DNA of 64,000 nucleotides from the human T2T-CHM13v2.0 reference genome, Homo sapiens, in assembly GCF_009914755.1 (NCBI RefSeq), contig NC_060932.1, one strand, 5' to 3'. Numbering within the stretch: position 1 is the first letter of the stretch; every line of letters starts with the position of its first letter. A program made the translations under genes and the position numbers. Below, in pieces: positions 2,335-46,900 of this stretch. The notes below the pieces were generated by a model. The model did not search any database. It saw only the letters and a program-made list of their open reading frames with translations, and was not told the origin of the DNA.

Positions 2335-2430
2335 CAAATTTGCTTTTTCTCTTGCTCTTCTTTTTTGTTCTTCTGATTTCAATTTTTCATTTAAAGCATC
2401 ATTTTCACTCTTCAGATCATTGATTTGCTT
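2335..2430 (-). CDS. MTUS1: MTUS1 coding exon (96 nt, phase 0-0): [32 protein letters not shown]; last exon inside the window
   Basis: Minus strand ttttag|AAGCAAATC...AATTTG|gtaagt; in frame with the preceding exon; matches recalled MTUS1/ATIP coiled-coil sequence. Confidence 0.95.
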
Positions 2431-2573: not shown

Positions 2574-2647
2574 CTCTAGCGATTCCTGCTTCTCAGAAAG
2601 TAAATCTTCAAGCGATTTCTTTTCTATTTCATGGCCTTTCTTAATTT
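2574..2647 (-). CDS. MTUS1: MTUS1 coding exon (74 nt, phase 1-0): (E)IKKGHEIEKKSLEDLLSEKQESLE
   Basis: cccag|AAATTAAG...CTAGAG|gtgggt; phase fits both neighbours; followed by a 143-nt intron. Confidence 0.95.
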
Positions 2648-3709: not shown

Positions 3710-3815
3710 CTGAAAGGGAGGCTTCATAGGCCTTCTTTAGCAATTCAAGTTTCTCTGAGTGGCTAGCTTCAATTTCCAACTTAGAGGTTTCATGCGCAGC
3801 ATTTAAGTTGTCAAA
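3710..3815 (-). CDS. MTUS1: MTUS1 coding exon (106 nt, phase 0-1): [35 protein letters not shown]; ends at a GC donor
   Basis: ttacag|TTTGAC...TCAG|gcaagg; part of ORF 3684..3890; the phase joins the next exon only at the GC site. Confidence 0.95.
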
Positions 3816-5013: not shown

Positions 5014-5216
5014 CTGCTCTTGCAATTGCATTTTGTACTTCTCTGCTTCTTCAATGTAAGTGTCCCGAAGCTTTTCATACTCCCTGGTGTAAAACTCTTT
5101 AAGCCGATTCTCTCGTTCTGTTTTTTCAGCCTGGTGCTGCTGGACGAATGCTTCATACACTGTTTGTAACTCATTCCTGGCTTTTTCTAATTTCTCACAG
5201 GTGGTTGAAGCAGTGA
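5014..5216 (-). CDS. MTUS1: MTUS1 coding exon (203 nt, phase 1-0): (V)[67 protein letters not shown]
   Basis: Polypyrimidine tract + ttttcag|TCACTGCT...GAGCAG|gtctgt; overlaps ORF 4963..5160; heptad-rich. Confidence 0.96.
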
Positions 5217-24349: not shown

Positions 24350-24416
24350 CTAGCTCTCCCCGGAGGTTAACAAGTTCTTGAGATAGGGTTTTGTGTTGTT
24401 TCAGTGCTTCCTCCCG
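24350..24416 (-). CDS. MTUS1: MTUS1 coding exon (67 nt, phase 0-1): REEALKQHKTLSQELVNLRGEL
   Basis: ttttccgcag|CGGGAG...GAGCTAG|gtaaga; overlaps ORF 24141..24431; phases fit. Confidence 0.95.
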
Positions 24417-25439
24417 CTGCGGAAAACACACATCAAGTTACTCATGCTTTCAAGAGGGTCCCTTTCAGTAAGGTACACATTTGTTATCACTAGGAAAATG
24501 AGACCCAGTATTGGGAAGCCAAGATATGAATCATTTAGGCTAACAATTTGTGTTGTTAAAAGAAACACAGTTGTCCCTTAGCTGTTAAGGAAATTCGTAA
24601 TTCAAAAATCTGTATTTTTGCAGGTCCCAGTGAAACTTTGGTTTGACGCAGTGAATGGCCCATTTAGAAATATTTACTTTGAGCCAGTGCTTCACTGCTG
24701 ATCCATAGAACCTTTCGGCTAATGCATACTGTACTTAAGATGTAATGCGTTCTCCTCCTCCAAGGGCAATAAACATCTAATCAGTTTAAGATAAATATTT
24801 AATGTTCTAAACATAAGCACATATATGCACTTTGTCCTATATTTGCACATAAAAAAGTTTCGTTACAATGCCAATCCTTCTAAAAGAAAGACAAAAAGTT
24901 TGTTAGAAAGCTATAGCAGAAAGATAATCCTTTAAAGACAAAATTAAATTAATTTTTTTCAGCTACATACCATTTTCTAAGGATTATGATATTTTGGATC
25001 AGTGATAATTCTAAATCGACGTTAGAGAAACAAACCAAAGAAAACCGGATGGCTGTTTTTAGTATCAGAGAATCAAGTATCAACCTTGAGCTGAAGAATA
25101 ATGTTCAAGTTACCAGCAACTCACGGCAATCACACATACACACATACTTACACAAATACAGTAATTACATACAGTTCCTTAAAAGGTAGATTCCCTAGCA
25201 CCAGGGAGTAACTAAAAAAAAATTGAAGAATTTCAAAGCTCGCTGAAAAATGCCCTCACGAGGATCACCCAAGACGGAGCTCCCACCGCATCCTGATCAC
25301 AGCGTTGCAGAGATCATGAGACCCGGCCTTTGCAGGCAAGAGTTGCTTGTCATTCAAAGCATTTTCCCTGAATTCCAGACAGCCTCTGCAGTAGTCCTGA
25401 CATTCTTCCAGAAAAGCACTATAAACAAATACTAATTAC

Positions 25440-25493
25440 CCTTGTTGCTGCACATGGAGAATAGAGGCACAGTTTGCTGCTGGGGCAGCCCAT
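25440..25493 (-). CDS. MTUS1: Alternative first coding exon of a short MTUS1 isoform: MGCPSSKLCLYSPCAATR (18 aa, phase 0), splicing to the 24416 acceptor
   Basis: ggaaaATGG (strong Kozak, A-3/G+4), 18 sense codons, then AGG|gtaatt donor; phase 0 matches the phase-0 acceptor across a 1023-nt intron; sits in a locally CpG-richer, non-repeat segment. Confidence 0.8.
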
Positions 25494-25800
25494 TTTCCAG
25501 CTTCTGTCTCCAAGTCCCCCCACCCCTCGCACTGTGCAAGAAGCATACAGGTGGCCGCGCCACCCACCAGTCGGGTCTGTCTACATTCAAAGCTCTAGCA
25601 GGAGGCGCGCCATTGGCCCTCGGGCGTCTTACTTCATGTCCTGCAGGTTACCGTGTGCCTCGGATTCCTCACTCACAGAAGCTGATACTGCAGCTTCTGC
25701 CTTTGGCACAGGCAGCCTGTGATTACTTAAAGCCACAGCCTTTCATTTATGAAAAACGAGAGGCAGGCATTAGACTGATCGATTGCCATTTAGTTAAATA
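25494..25800 (-). promoter_or_regulatory. Putative 5'UTR/internal promoter of the MGC-isoform exon
   Basis: Repeat-free, GC/CpG-enriched (GGCCGCGC, GGCGCGCC, CGGGCG) relative to AT-rich flanks, directly upstream of the ATG; TSS not determinable. Confidence 0.5.
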
Positions 25801-28359
25801 TCAGCTGCAACGGAGGAAAGAAAAAACTGACCCCCTCTGCATGGATAATGGAGTTATTTTTAGACTTGTGAGCCTTTTTCCTCCCCTCTCTAATTGTGGT
25901 CATTATTTGATCACACTTACTAATAGAAAAGGGAAACTTGTTCTTCAAAACCCATATACTAAATGAGGTTATGAACTAGGTGAAGAGCAAGGAAAGGGGC
26001 ATGCTGTCGTTTACAATTTTAAATGACATTATGAAATGAGAGGTGTTTCAAAATAAGTCTGAAGTGCTGATCTGAGAGTTGGAGATCCCATATATTTTTA
26101 ACTTTTACTTTGTTCTCACCTCTCAGTAAGAGCTACAGAAGTCAAGTCTAAACGCCAGCACTGAAACGTGGTCAGCAGGGACTGGGATTTAAGACCCACT
26201 TTTCACTGAGTACCTTTCTGGCTTCAATGGTATTCTAAATGCTTGGTTTTTAAAAATATGGCATTAAGTTGTTCTGAAATCACCAGTGAGTCAGAGTTTC
26301 TTAAAATAATAAGTAATTGGTTTTCTAATGTAGAAATTAAAGCCTGAGGAAAATCAGCCCGCATAATAATGGAAGAAAAACATAAAAATATGTATCATAA
26401 ATACTTCTCGTAATATCAAATTTAAGCCTGAATTTTGTTTAGTAATCTACTTCAAGTAAACACCAGGAAGCTTTACCACTCAAGTAACAGGAAAAACAAG
26501 ACAGCTTTACTAAATGCCCACAAACAATCCTGAAACTCATTTGGTGAATTTGCTTAAAATTCACTTTTCAGTAGTAACCAACTTACTAACAGAAGGAAGA
26601 GATGGCAAGAAAATTCAATCATTTTTCAAATTTATGGAAACTAATGGGAGGATGAAAAAAATTAAAAATTACAGTTAGTATAACTGCAAAGAATAATTGT
26701 GTGAAATCATTACGTTCTACTGCAAAAATACACCAGGTGATATTTTTGCTTATTAAGGGAGGTTTTGGGAAAGGGAGTTTCACCAAGCATGTCGACATTT
26801 CCCCAAACTTCAACTCCACTGCACTCCACGTTCCTGTCCTTAATGCCTCAGAAACTACTGACATCTTCCAACCTCTGTCAGGCACAGTAACAGTAACAGG
26901 AAAACCTTGAGTTCATCTTTCACTCTTTGTCTAAATGGGTTGTGCAAAAGTCAGTTGGTTCTTCCCTTGTAATGTGACACCATTCCCCTCCTCCAAATGC
27001 ATAGACCATTTACCCTTCTAAATTGGTTGGTAACTTATTACTTCAAACTAATTAACTAAGCATTTTTCATAGCAGATGCTGTGAAAATATAAAAGAAATT
27101 TAAGACATGGTCCCTGTCTTCAAGAAGCATGGGGCCTACCTAGAACTAGAACATCCAGGCTCAATTCTTTTGGTCATCTATCAAGGCAGATGACCTCATC
27201 GGATGGGAAGCAGTAATGAAAAAAACCAAGGGCTTTAAATACCATCCACAGATGAAATGCTGACCCCAGTGCCCATACTGTAAAAGACACATACTAAGGG
27301 TTAGTTTCTGCCTGACTCTCCCTGGTAGCTTGGCCTTTACATGTACTTACCCTTTACTTGTAGATGATAAAATGCATTATGTCCTTTAGATACTGATTTA
27401 CTGTTTCTTTTTACTCAGCTGCTCCTAGATCAGTGTTTCTCTCTTAGATGATAAACTCTTAACCGTCTAGATAACAGGTTGATTCAATTCTCTTTGTATT
27501 GTAACATGCAGAATTACACACAATGTGAAAAAAGAGAAGGTGGAAATCTGGATATAAAGATGCCTTTATGCTCATGCATTAAATATATGAAATGCTCCAA
27601 GAAAAAAAAAATGGATTCACCATAATTGAATTAGGAGTCCCTGGGACACAGGCACTTAGTCTCTGGCTGTGGTCCCATCGGTGTGCCTGCATTTTTGCTA
27701 GCCACTGAGTAGCATCAACAGCATAGAGCATCTTGCAGAGAACAGCCACATCAGATGGCTCAGACGTGTGCTGCATCTGACCTCCTCCCCATCACCCACA
27801 CAGTGAATTTGCTCAATGCATCTATGTTTTTTTGTTCCAAGTCAACTTTACTGCTAGTGCCATTCAAAATTCACCTTTGTTCAGGTGCTACTTTAGGTTA
27901 AATTCCACTTGCAAAAAAAAAAAAAAAAAAGATGTGGAGGCATTTTGAAGAATTAGAGGTTTGGGGAGGGTGACCTCAGCCCTGTTCAAGTTTACCTAGA
28001 AAGTCACCCAATAGACCCTTTTAGGAAGAAGCTTAATTACTACCATCAATACTGTTGTTCACTTTGGCTGTCTGTGCAGAATACCGTCTAACTAAGCAAG
28101 GATAAACCAAGAATTAGAAAAAAACTAAAATAACTTTAGTGTGTCTTCTGCGAAACAGAGTGTGACATTAGTTCTCAGATTCATGAGACATCAGAATGTC
28201 TGATGTGTAATGAAATATGTCTGCCACTACAGTGGGAAACTTATAGTTACTAAGTAGACTTGCAACAAAAGCATGGTAGTTGCAAGATTCTCTTAACCAT
28301 TGTCACCCCATAATCGAAGGCTCTAAAGCCATTTAGAAAAGGTTAGCAATAACAAAAAA

Positions 28360-33471: not shown

Positions 33472-33686
33472 CTCAGACAGCAGGTGCTGAATCACAACTG
33501 TCAATGCCTCAAACTTGGTATTACCACAGGCAAGAAGCTGCTTGAGCTGCAGGATAAATCCACTTTGGTTTTCACATTTTGTTTTATATTGCGTCAATTC
33601 AAGTGTTTTCTCAGGGGGCAGCGCATCGGGAGCCGTCTGTGGCTGGATACATAAGCTTCGAGGATTCTTTTGCCTGCTCTTTTCAA
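33472..33686 (-). CDS. MTUS1: MTUS1 coding exon (215 nt, phase 1-0): (V)[71 protein letters not shown]
   Basis: ttttgcag|TTGAAAAG...TCTGAG|gtaagg; ORF 33376..33705; can accept either the 46401 or the 62367 donor (both phase 1). Confidence 0.97.
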
Positions 33687-46400: not shown

Positions 46401-46521
46401 CTGTGTGGAAAACAACAGTGCTTCTCCTAAACCCTGAAGGAAGTCGAAGGTTTCGAAGCAATCCTTTGGCCGTCAGTCGTATGTGAATGGTGGATAAGGA
46501 GAATTTGGGAGACAACAACAT
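46401..46521 (-). CDS. MTUS1: ATIP1/MTSG1 isoform first coding exon: [40 protein letters not shown] (40 aa + 1 nt)
   Basis: gacATGTTGTTG...CACACAG|gtctgt; 121 nt, phase 1 fits exon 33686; matches the recalled ATIP1 N-terminus; missed by the ORF track. Confidence 0.95.
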
Positions 46522-46900
46522 GTCTTCGGAGCAGGTGGCGAGATTTCACAGAAGAGGCAATTTCCATGGACTGTCACATACTGTCTTTTTAAACTCAGTA
46601 CTCTTCAAGGCCAAGAAATACAGTCAGAGGAAAGATGCCTACACAGCAAATGTCATTCCACCAGAGAGGCATAGAAGAAAAAAATCCCCCAGGGCTGGCC
46701 AAGTGTTTCTGGCTTCCGTTTTCACTTTCAGATGTTGCCAAAATGATGCTCTTCCTCTGAATACAATCTCCCTCCTGCAGGTCTAGAAGCTGCCTCTGAA
46801 CCACATCACACTGTGCATGCTTGTGGAGTTGTTATGGTTTTCATCCGAGATGGTAAAGGGGAGGAGAAAGTGGGTGGTCTCAGGAGCTTTACAGAACCAC
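46522..46900 (-). promoter_or_regulatory. ATIP1 5'UTR / internal promoter region with several upstream ATGs
   Basis: Unique sequence contiguous with the ATIP1 ATG; minus-strand ATGs at 46567, 46579, 46656, 46672, 46806, 46818, 46844; TSS not visible. Confidence 0.55.

What the first reader, a model, noticed from the sequence alone, without database searches (positions are those of the whole stretch)
25440..25493. Hidden 18-codon first exon encoding an N-myristoylation/palmitoylation anchor (MGCPSSKLCLYSPCAATR)
Seen: strong-Kozak ATG, 54 nt open, GTAATT donor, phase matching the 24416 acceptor, giving MGCPSSKLCLYSPCAATR-REEALKQ...; unspliced read-through stops after 6 more codons. Established: M-G-C-x-x-S-K fits the N-myristoyltransferase consensus (Gly2, Ser6, Lys7), and Gly2+Cys3 is the dual acylation signal of Fyn/Lck/Yes and G-alpha-i; Cys9 and Cys14 are extra palmitoylation candidates. 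From memory, related proteins also begin MG plus Cys (CCDC69 MGC..., short MTUS2 MGHCCC...), and a roughly 342-aa MTUS1 isoform may be annotated. Inference: a lipid-anchored ATIP isoform that places the coiled coil at membranes next to the AT2 receptor, or recruits other isoforms by dimerisation. I know of no functional description of it.
Basis: partly seen in the sequence, partly recalled or inferred. Interest (0 to 1): 0.8.

Follow-up and report, generated by a model that had tools for sequence, protein, structure and literature searches.

The report
Annotated lipid-anchor first exon of MTUS1
This short exon is a real, already annotated alternative start of the human MTUS1 gene, and its 18-residue cap looks like a fatty-acid membrane anchor that has been kept from fish to humans, yet I found no test of it in print.

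Summary
The sequence observation is correct. On the minus strand there is an ATG at 25493 with A at -3 and G at +4, then 18 codons (MGCPSSKLCLYSPCAATR). The donor is AGG|GTAATT after 25440, and it joins in phase 0 to the acceptor at 24416.

The exon is not hidden. It is the 3' part of the RefSeq exon 25440-25656. It yields a 342-aa isoform that UniProt already listed without an ATIP name (PMC3994487, Table 3).

New here is how deeply the cap is conserved. The same 18-residue cap, joined to the same coiled-coil position, heads 342-355-aa MTUS1 forms in primates, a rodent, a shrew, a tenrec, a bird and 15 named teleosts. Gly2, Cys3, Ser6, Lys/Arg7 and Cys9 are kept in 23 of 24 such forms.

The paralogue CCDC69 has a near-identical cap in sharks. 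Human CCDC69 has been shown by experiment to be myristoylated on Gly2 and held at the cell cortex (PMC11621681).

Best reading: a co-translationally myristoylated, probably palmitoylated, membrane-anchored CCDC69-like MTUS1 isoform. Acylation, expression and any link to the AT2 receptor remain untested. No paper found describes lipidation of MTUS1. Interest is moderate.

The parts
25494..25656 (-). 5' untranslated part of the alternative first exon (RefSeq exon 25440-25656). It holds four upstream ATGs.
   Evidence: Hub annotation for the exon limits; upstream ATGs at 25637 (MK*), 25613 (8 codons) and 25586 (M*) are in frame with the main start but are followed by stops. The one at 25546 is out of frame, has a weak context and overlaps the main start; when spliced it runs 40 codons.
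25440..25493 (-). Coding part of the exon: 18 codons, MGCPSSKLCLYSPCAATR, a candidate N-myristoylation (Gly2) and S-palmitoylation (Cys3, possibly Cys9 and Cys14) cap.
   Evidence: sequence, start context. (100% match to residues 1-18 of P0002, Pan MTUS1, 342 aa). (conservation).
25431..25439 (-). Splice donor, GTAATTAGT, directly after the AGG that ends the exon.
   Evidence: In the unspliced ORF of an unnamed contig (P0001) the six read-through codons VISICL are identical, so the start of the intron is conserved too.
24417..24436 (-). Pyrimidine-rich tract and CAG acceptor of the next exon.
   Evidence: TGATGTGTGTTTTCCGCAG|CGG.
24350..24416 (-). Second exon of the short isoform (shared coding exon), where the conserved coiled-coil module begins.
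   Evidence: Hub annotation. (phase-0 join). (the same junction in six amniote proteins).
5014..5216 (-). Shared downstream coding exon.
   Evidence: Hub annotation. (frame stays open).
3710..3815 (-). Shared downstream coding exon.
   Evidence: Hub annotation..
2574..2647 (-). Shared downstream coding exon.
   Evidence: Hub annotation..
2335..2430 (-). Shared downstream coding exon. The remaining exons lie outside the window.
   Evidence: Hub annotation..
25500..25699 (.). Local G+C and CpG peak over the annotated transcription start, a candidate core promoter of the short isoform.
   Evidence: GC is 0.59 and CpG observed/expected 0.60 here, against 0.41 and 0.31 for the whole window. Its flanks, 25300-25499 and 25700-26099, have CpG observed/expected of 0.18-0.32; further out, 24900-25299 reaches 0.63-0.67 on only 3-5 CpGs. 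That it acts as a promoter is inferred, not shown.

Best explanation
Positions 25440-25493 are the coding part of an annotated alternative first exon of MTUS1, and the most 3' of the two alternative first exons listed in this window. It lies about 1 kb upstream of exon 24350-24416, inside the 9-kb intron that follows exon 33472-33686. Transcripts that start here encode a 342-aa protein: an 18-residue cap fused directly to the coiled-coil module that defines the MTUS1/MTUS2/CCDC69 family.

Proposed mechanism (inferred, not shown): methionine aminopeptidase removes Met1. N-myristoyltransferase then attaches myristate to Gly2 during translation, favoured by Ser6 and Lys7. The weakly membrane-bound protein is next S-palmitoylated on Cys3, and perhaps on Cys9 and Cys14, by a membrane DHHC enzyme. 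That fixes the coiled coil at the plasma membrane or Golgi.

The isoform is co-linear from residue 1 with CCDC69. In CCDC69 the myristoyl anchor holds a microtubule- and KIF2C-acting coiled coil at the cell cortex. I therefore read the 342-aa form as the CCDC69-like, membrane-tethered version of MTUS1. The cap is probably an old feature of the family, not a human oddity.
For: Anatomy. Annotation: the hub table, plus PMC3994487 Table 3 (passages seen), which lists a UniProt MTUS1 isoform of 342 aa and 38 kDa with '?' in place of an ATIP name.

Orthologues: a search with residues 1-40 of P0002 scored 99 candidates. Six clusters, holding 47 member sequences, matched over the whole 40 residues. 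These are 342-347-aa MTUS1 forms of Pan, Aotus, Thomomys, Sorex, Echinops and Numida, and all start MGC. The other 89 listed hits matched only the part after the cap and carry other N-termini. A profile search (best 120 of 886 listed) added 345-355-aa 'MTUS1 homolog A' forms of 15 named teleosts and 3 unnamed contigs with the same cap.

Of these, 46 start with Met and reach the coiled-coil anchor within 60 residues; 38 of the 46 start MG and 28 start MGC. Among MTUS1-clade forms with exactly an 18-residue cap, 23 of 24 read M-G-C-x-x-S-[KR]-x-C; the exception is P0271. Cys14 is kept in 21 of the 24 MTUS1 rows.

Paralogues: shark CCDC69-like proteins start MGCSSSKLCCC or MGSSSSKLCCC, and turtle CCDC69 starts MGC. 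P0208 aligns to the query from residue 1 to 314. The tree gives three well-supported clades, each containing MG-capped short forms.

Experiment on the paralogue: human CCDC69 is myristoylated on Gly2. The G2A mutant, the NMT inhibitor IMP-1088 and N-terminal tags all abolish its cortical localisation (PMC11621681; abstract and passages seen).
Against: Nothing here shows that the human transcript is expressed, translated or acylated. No CAGE, junction-read, ribosome-profiling or proteomic data could be consulted.

The annotated human 5' UTR carries four upstream ATGs. One of them opens a 40-codon overlapping reading frame, which could limit translation.

Most orthologue records are automatic gene models ('isoform X'), not cloned cDNAs.

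MTUS1, MTUS2 and CCDC69 are all absent from the 5 supplementary files of the HeLa myristoylome study (Thinon 2014). This is weak evidence, because the proven substrate CCDC69 is absent too.

The third paralogue clade starts MGH, which fails the recalled PROSITE rule at position 3. Myristoylation may therefore not be common to the whole family.

In one unnamed contig (P0001) an upstream in-frame ATG is not followed by a stop. If that ATG were transcribed and used, Gly2 would be buried.
Confidence: 0.7

Rival explanations
1. The cap is a cysteine-based module that is S-palmitoylated only, or that binds a metal or acts in redox chemistry across the coiled-coil dimer. On this reading myristoylation of Gly2 is absent or incidental.
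For: Cys9, Pro13 and Cys14 are conserved about as well as the myristoylation positions (Cys9 in 25 of 25 rows, though Cys9 was part of the selection pattern; Pro13 in 23 of 25; Cys14 in 21 of 25). The third paralogue clade has MGHCCCK, which is rich in Cys but has His at position 3, disallowed by the recalled PROSITE pattern.
Against: Gly2, Ser6 and Lys/Arg7 have no role in palmitoylation alone, yet they are kept in 23 of 24 18-residue MTUS1 caps. Teleost mtus1b-clade caps drop the cysteines but keep MG..SK and add a polybasic run. That points to Gly2 acylation as the common element. CCDC69 is proven to be myristoylated (PMC11621681).
Confidence: 0.12
2. The transcript is real and conserved, but in humans it is translated little or only under particular conditions. 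The upstream reading frames gate the main start, so the exon acts mainly as a regulated promoter and 5' leader.
For: There are four upstream ATGs in the 163-nt annotated leader. One is out of frame and overlaps the main start. The isoform has no ATIP name and no functional paper was found.
Against: Three of the four upstream ATGs terminate within 1-8 codons, which allows re-initiation, and the overlapping one has a weak context (T at -3, C at +4). The main ATG has the strongest context. The pattern of peptide conservation (function-specific residues kept, others free) indicates selection on the protein.
Confidence: 0.1
3. Annotation noise: an occasional cryptic start site whose first ATG fits an acylation motif by chance.
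For: The motif occurs by chance at 9 of 2232 ATGs in the window. Another candidate, at 27276 in the same intron, has the motif, a strong start context and a phase-0 GT.
Against: The identical cap length, junction and key residues are found in mammals, a bird and 15 named teleosts. A near-identical cap heads shark CCDC69-like proteins.
Confidence: 0.03

Closest known systems
CCDC69, the small paralogue of MTUS1 and MTUS2
   Same: P0208 is co-linear with the 342-aa MTUS1 isoform from residue 1. The shark caps MGCSSSKLCCC and MGSSSSKLCCC nearly match the MTUS1 cap. Human CCDC69 is experimentally myristoylated on Gly2 and anchored at the cortex (PMC11621681).
   Different: CCDC69 is a separate gene with a single architecture. 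Its cap is followed by a basic stretch that the authors read as a nuclear localisation signal. It forms a separate tree clade (98% SH-aLRT support). The MTUS1 cap is one of several alternative N-termini and has the extra conserved Cys9-x3-Pro-Cys14 stretch.
Dual-acylated N-termini of the Src-family kinase (SH4) and G-alpha-i type (names recalled, not tested here)
   Same: Met-Gly-Cys start with a small residue at position 6 and a basic residue at 7. The expected order is myristate on Gly2, then palmitate on Cys3.
   Different: There is no sequence homology beyond the motif. The cargo is a coiled coil, not a kinase or GTPase. Acylation of the MTUS1 cap has not been shown.
ATIP1 and ATIP4, the named short MTUS1 isoforms from alternative promoters
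   Same: They come from the same gene, use the same principle (an own first exon spliced to shared 3' exons) and share the C-terminal coiled coil (PMC3566609). The first coding exon of ATIP1 is in this window, with its ATG at 46521.
   Different: ATIP1 and ATIP4 both include exon 33472-33686 (72 residues), which the 342-aa form skips. ATIP1 starts MLLSPKF and ATIP4-type forms start MT[VI]PGGF. Neither has Gly2, and ATIP4 is predicted to have a transmembrane segment instead.
Short MG-capped forms of the third paralogue clade (probably MTUS2)
   Same: An MG start and a Cys-rich cap of about 18 residues are joined at the same coiled-coil position (P0234, anchor at residue 29).
   Different: The cap reads MGHCCCK. 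His3 fails the recalled PROSITE myristoylation pattern. The MTUS2 name rests only on an Atlas lead and on being a distinct clade.

Membership tests
Annotated MTUS1 transcript/isoform (RefSeq, UniProt) | Exon limits and protein length match a catalogued isoform. | tested here: met
   The hub annotation lists exon 25440-25656 among exons of other RefSeq transcripts. PMC3994487 Table 3 lists a 342-aa, 38-kDa UniProt isoform without an ATIP name.
MTUS1/MTUS2/CCDC69 coiled-coil family | Carries the family's C-terminal coiled-coil domain (Pfam PF27558, named MTUS1_CCDC69_CC2). | tested here: met
   PF27558 is precomputed on P0002-P0007. A full-length phmmer search found 472 proteins at E<=0.001. The local Pfam copy lacks this model, so my own scan found 0 families for P0002.
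N-myristoyltransferase substrates | Initiator Met followed by Gly2. | tested here: met
   Gly2 is present in all 24 MTUS1-clade rows (the selection pattern included it) and in 38 of 46 short forms selected without regard to it.
N-myristoyltransferase substrates | Position 3 is not charged, aromatic or Pro; position 6 is small (Ser preferred); position 7 is not Pro (pattern recalled from PROSITE PS00008). | tested here: met
   Cys3, Ser6 and Lys7. The pattern holds for every one of the 24 MTUS1-clade MGC caps.
N-myristoyltransferase substrates | Myristate is actually attached to Gly2 in cells or in vitro. | not testable with these tools
   No labelling data were found. MTUS1 is absent from the 5 supplementary files of Thinon 2014.
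Dual-acylated (myristoyl + palmitoyl) N-terminal anchors | A cysteine next to the myristoylated glycine (Cys3). | tested here: met
   Cys3 is present in the human exon and in 28 of 46 short family forms. The teleost mtus1b clade replaces it with Ser/Ala plus a polybasic run.
Dual-acylated (myristoyl + palmitoyl) N-terminal anchors | A thioester-linked fatty acid on the cysteine, and membrane localisation that depends on it. | not testable with these tools
   41 papers hold both 'MTUS1' and 'palmitoyl'. None of the 20 listed titles concerns MTUS1 acylation. I opened two of them.
AT2-receptor-interacting proteins (ATIP) in the functional sense | Binds the C-terminal tail of the AT2 receptor. | not tested
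   PMC3566609 places the binding domain in the shared 395-residue C-terminal region and states that only ATIP1 is proven to bind. The 342-aa form lacks the first 72 residues of that region.

The most novel reading that the evidence does not exclude
The acylated cap is the ancestral N-terminus of the whole MTUS1/MTUS2/CCDC69 family and predates the duplications that produced the three genes. MTUS1 has kept it for more than 400 million years as a separate promoter-driven isoform. On this reading the tumour-suppressor locus MTUS1 encodes a so far unstudied membrane-tethered, CCDC69-like regulator. It could hold KIF2C-acting or microtubule-binding coiled coils, or heterodimers with ATIP1 or ATIP3, at the cell cortex. 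It could also be the form best placed to meet the AT2 receptor.
Probability: 0.45. Interest if true: 0.6.

Novelty: new member of a known kind. Interest (0 to 1): 0.45.

Why it matters
MTUS1 is studied as a tumour suppressor and as a partner of the AT2 receptor almost wholly through ATIP1, ATIP3 and ATIP4. How its soluble coiled-coil products reach membranes is unclear.

A conserved lipid-anchored isoform would give a simple route to the membrane. It would also parallel the recent finding that membrane tethering of CCDC69 protects the microtubule network.

There is a practical warning as well. N-terminal tags, pan-isoform antibodies and 3'-exon probes all hide or destroy such a form. N-terminal tagging did exactly that for CCDC69 (PMC11621681).

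The idea can be tested directly with standard G2A and C3S mutants and clickable fatty acids.

Tried and rejected
- Earlier findings of this scan were not open.
I replaced it with the 53-codon open frame around the exon.
- Full-text searches found no description of lipidated MTUS1: MTUS1 + myristoyl (6 and 7 papers, only the CCDC69 paper relevant), the peptide string (0 papers), and MTUS1 + palmitoyl (41 papers, 20 listed, none on MTUS1 acylation by title).
- A search for recalled accession numbers and 'isoform 6' produced only the UniProt isoform table.
- Myristoylome resources: the Giglione and Meinnel 2022 review is not held. Thinon 2014 supplements hold no MTUS1, MTUS2 or CCDC69. A general 'myristoylome' search was unproductive. 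The main text of one preprint has none of the names. Supplements of a further paper could not be opened, so predicted or peptide-array myristoylome tables that may list this isoform were not seen.
- The local Pfam scan gave nothing, because the family model is newer than the local copy.
- Mtus1 appears in a mouse lipid-raft protein list (PMC2997345). I rejected this as evidence: the isoform is unknown and the list also includes mitochondrial ribosomal proteins.
- The MTUS1 hit in PMC11193767 is only the lncRNA MTUS1-DT in a gene list.
- A classical CpG-island or TATA promoter was considered. Only a 200-bp G+C/CpG peak is present.

Full report

Yes. On the minus strand the ATG at 25493 sits in TGGAAAATGG, with A at -3 and G at +4. 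Eighteen codons follow, reading MGCPSSKLCLYSPCAATR. The exon ends AGG at 25440 and the intron opens GTAATT. Unspliced read-through stops after six more codons.

The next annotated coding exon begins after ...ttttccgcag at 24416, and the join is in phase 0. Joining the annotated in-window exons by coordinates gives 200 codons without a stop. That product differs at 3 of 200 positions from a 342-aa chimpanzee MTUS1 protein, P0002.

**2. It is not hidden.**

The hub annotation lists 25440-25656 as an exon of other RefSeq MTUS1 transcripts. The finding is therefore the coding end of a catalogued alternative first exon.

A 2014 paper tabulating the seven UniProt isoforms lists one of 342 aa and 38 kDa, with a question mark where the ATIP name would be (PMC3994487, Table 3; passages seen). 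The CCDC69 paper also speaks of seven MTUS1 isoforms.

Within the gene, the first coding exon of ATIP1 has its ATG at 46521, inside exon 46401-46814. It splices to exon 33472-33686. The MGC exon lies further 3', in the 9-kb intron before exon 24350-24416. The short isoform therefore skips the 72 residues of exon 33472-33686 that ATIP1, ATIP3 and ATIP4 share (PMC3566609).

**3. Chance.**

Of 2232 ATGs on both strands of the window, 9 start a peptide that fits the N-terminal myristoylation pattern (recalled from PROSITE PS00008). Two of these have Cys3. One other candidate in the same intron, at 27276, has the motif, a good start context and a phase-0 GT. The motif alone would therefore not carry the claim.

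**4. Conservation carries it.**

The exon is too short for the protein search. I used the 53-codon open frame around it instead. That search returned two proteins:
- P0001, an unspliced ORF from an unnamed contig. It has cap MGCPSSKMCLSPPCAATR, an identical six-codon intron read-through, and an identical nine residues' worth of leader just before the ATG.

Searching with residues 1-40 of P0002 scored 99 candidates and listed 95. Six clusters, holding 47 member sequences, matched over all 40 residues. These are 342-347-aa MTUS1 forms of Pan, Aotus, Thomomys, Sorex, Echinops and the bird Numida, and all begin MGC. The other 89 matched only the shared exon and carry ATIP1-type, ATIP4-type or bird-specific N-termini.

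A phmmer search over 1.84 billion representatives found 472 relatives at E<=0.001, of which 150 were listed. Ten of the 150 start MG, seven of them short forms with caps (P0150, P0199, P0208, P0223, P0234, P0236 and P0241).

A profile of those seven found 886 proteins, of which 120 were listed. It also supplied names:
- P0150 is anchovy 'MTUS1 homolog A'.
- P0208 is white-shark 'CCDC69-like'.
- P0241 is turtle CCDC69.
- 345-355-aa MTUS1 forms of 15 named teleosts carry caps such as MGCSGSKVCLNAPCAGHR.

**5. Counts.**

- 25 match M-G-C-x-x-S-[KR]-x-C: 24 in the MTUS1 clade and one shark CCDC69-like. In these rows, positions outside the selection pattern are still constrained: Leu10 in 23 of 25, Pro13 in 23 of 25, Cys14 in 21 of 25 and Arg18 in 23 of 25. 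Positions 8, 11, 12 and 17 vary freely.
- To avoid circularity I also selected every Met-initiated protein whose coiled-coil anchor motif lies within 60 residues, whatever its N-terminus. That gave 46 proteins, of which 38 start MG and 28 start MGC.
- The 8 exceptions are four fragments starting inside the upstream shared exon, two truncated models and two different predicted first exons.
- Among MTUS1-clade forms with exactly 18 residues before the junction, 23 of 24 carry the motif. P0271 does not.

**6. The family picture.**

I built a quick maximum-likelihood tree of the coiled-coil region. It used 45 proteins hand-picked out of the 355. Two were dropped because my anchor pattern missed them, leaving 43 rows. 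It shows three clades:
- MTUS1, 99% SH-aLRT support.
- CCDC69, 98% support.
- A clade with MGHCCCK or MGRL caps, 100% support.

The Atlas places P0223, a member of that third clade, beside MTUS2-named clusters, which is a lead only.

Within acanthomorph teleosts the mtus1a-type clade keeps the MGC cap. The mtus1b-type clade has MG[SA]xxSK followed by a run such as RKKKRKR. That is a myristoyl-plus-polybasic design in place of myristoyl-plus-cysteine.

All three paralogues thus have short forms in which an MG cap abuts the same point of the coiled coil (alignment A1). The shark CCDC69-like cap is nearly the shrew MTUS1 cap. I infer that the cap is homologous and old. Exon-level synteny could not be checked.

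**7. Mechanism.**

Shown by experiment, for the paralogue only: human CCDC69 is myristoylated on Gly2. [quoted passage not shown] Its C-terminal coiled coils bind microtubules and act through KIF2C (PMC11621681; abstract and passages seen). That paper compares CCDC69 with ATIP3A, ATIP4 and TIP150. In the passages I saw, it does not mention the MGC isoform of MTUS1.

Inferred for MTUS1: Met1 is removed, Gly2 is myristoylated co-translationally, and Cys3 (perhaps also Cys9 and Cys14) is then palmitoylated. The result is a membrane-fixed coiled coil.

Only ATIP1 is proven to bind AT2, and the short form lacks 72 residues of the shared region.

**8. Evidence against, and gaps.**

- No expression, translation or acylation data could be consulted.
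- The annotated 163-nt leader has four upstream ATGs. Three are followed by stops within 1-8 codons. One is out of frame, has a weak context and overlaps the main start, running 40 codons when spliced.
- Most orthologues are automatic gene models.
- MTUS1 is absent from the HeLa myristoylome supplements, but so is the proven substrate CCDC69.
- The MGH clade fails the recalled pattern at position 3.

**9. Novelty and verdict.**

The exon and the isoform are already catalogued. The lipid-anchor reading, its conservation from teleosts to humans and its equivalence to the CCDC69 cap were not found in print by full-text searches. Those searches cover open-access papers and preprints only.

I file it as a new member of a known kind: an N-terminal myristoyl/palmitoyl anchor. 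It is of moderate interest and can be tested directly.

Noticed in passing
window 25494-25656 (- strand): The annotated leader of the short isoform holds four upstream ATGs (25637, 25613, 25586, 25546). The first three are in frame with the main start but are stopped within 1-8 codons. The fourth is out of frame and overlaps the main ATG.
   Followed up: partly
P0001 (unnamed contig): In this orthologous unspliced ORF the upstream in-frame ATG, equivalent to human 25613, is not followed by a stop, so the frame runs open into the MGC start. If that ATG were transcribed and used, it would bury Gly2. The nine residues' worth of leader just before the ATG, and the first six intron codons, are identical to human.
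   Followed up: no
P0199, P0252, P0266, P0278, P0288: The teleost mtus1b-type clade has a different cap: MG[SA]xxSK without cysteines, followed by a polybasic run. This looks like a myristoyl-electrostatic design replacing the myristoyl-cysteine one of the mtus1a-type clade.
   Followed up: partly
P0223, P0234, P0236: A third paralogue clade, probably MTUS2 by an Atlas lead, has short forms that start MGHCCCK or MGRL at the same junction. His3 or Arg3 fails the recalled myristoylation pattern, so these caps may be palmitoylated only.
   Followed up: partly
window 46401-46814 and 33472-33686 (- strand): The other 'exon of other transcripts' is the first exon of ATIP1: ATG at 46521, 40 codons plus one base, beginning MLLSPKF. 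It splices in phase into exon 33472-33686, which encodes the 72 residues that the MGC isoform skips.
   Followed up: yes
window 25500-25699: There is a 200-bp G+C (0.59) and CpG (observed/expected 0.60) peak over the annotated start site, in an otherwise AT-rich, CpG-poor intron.
   Followed up: partly
PMC2997345: Mtus1 appears in an appendix list of gene symbols and names in a paper on mouse brain lipid-raft proteomics. The isoform is unknown and the same list includes mitochondrial ribosomal proteins.
   Followed up: no
window 27276 (- strand): A second ATG in the same intron also fits the myristoylation pattern (MGTGVSI). It has a strong start context and a phase-0 GT after codon 9. No annotation or homologue was sought, so it is probably chance.
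   Followed up: no
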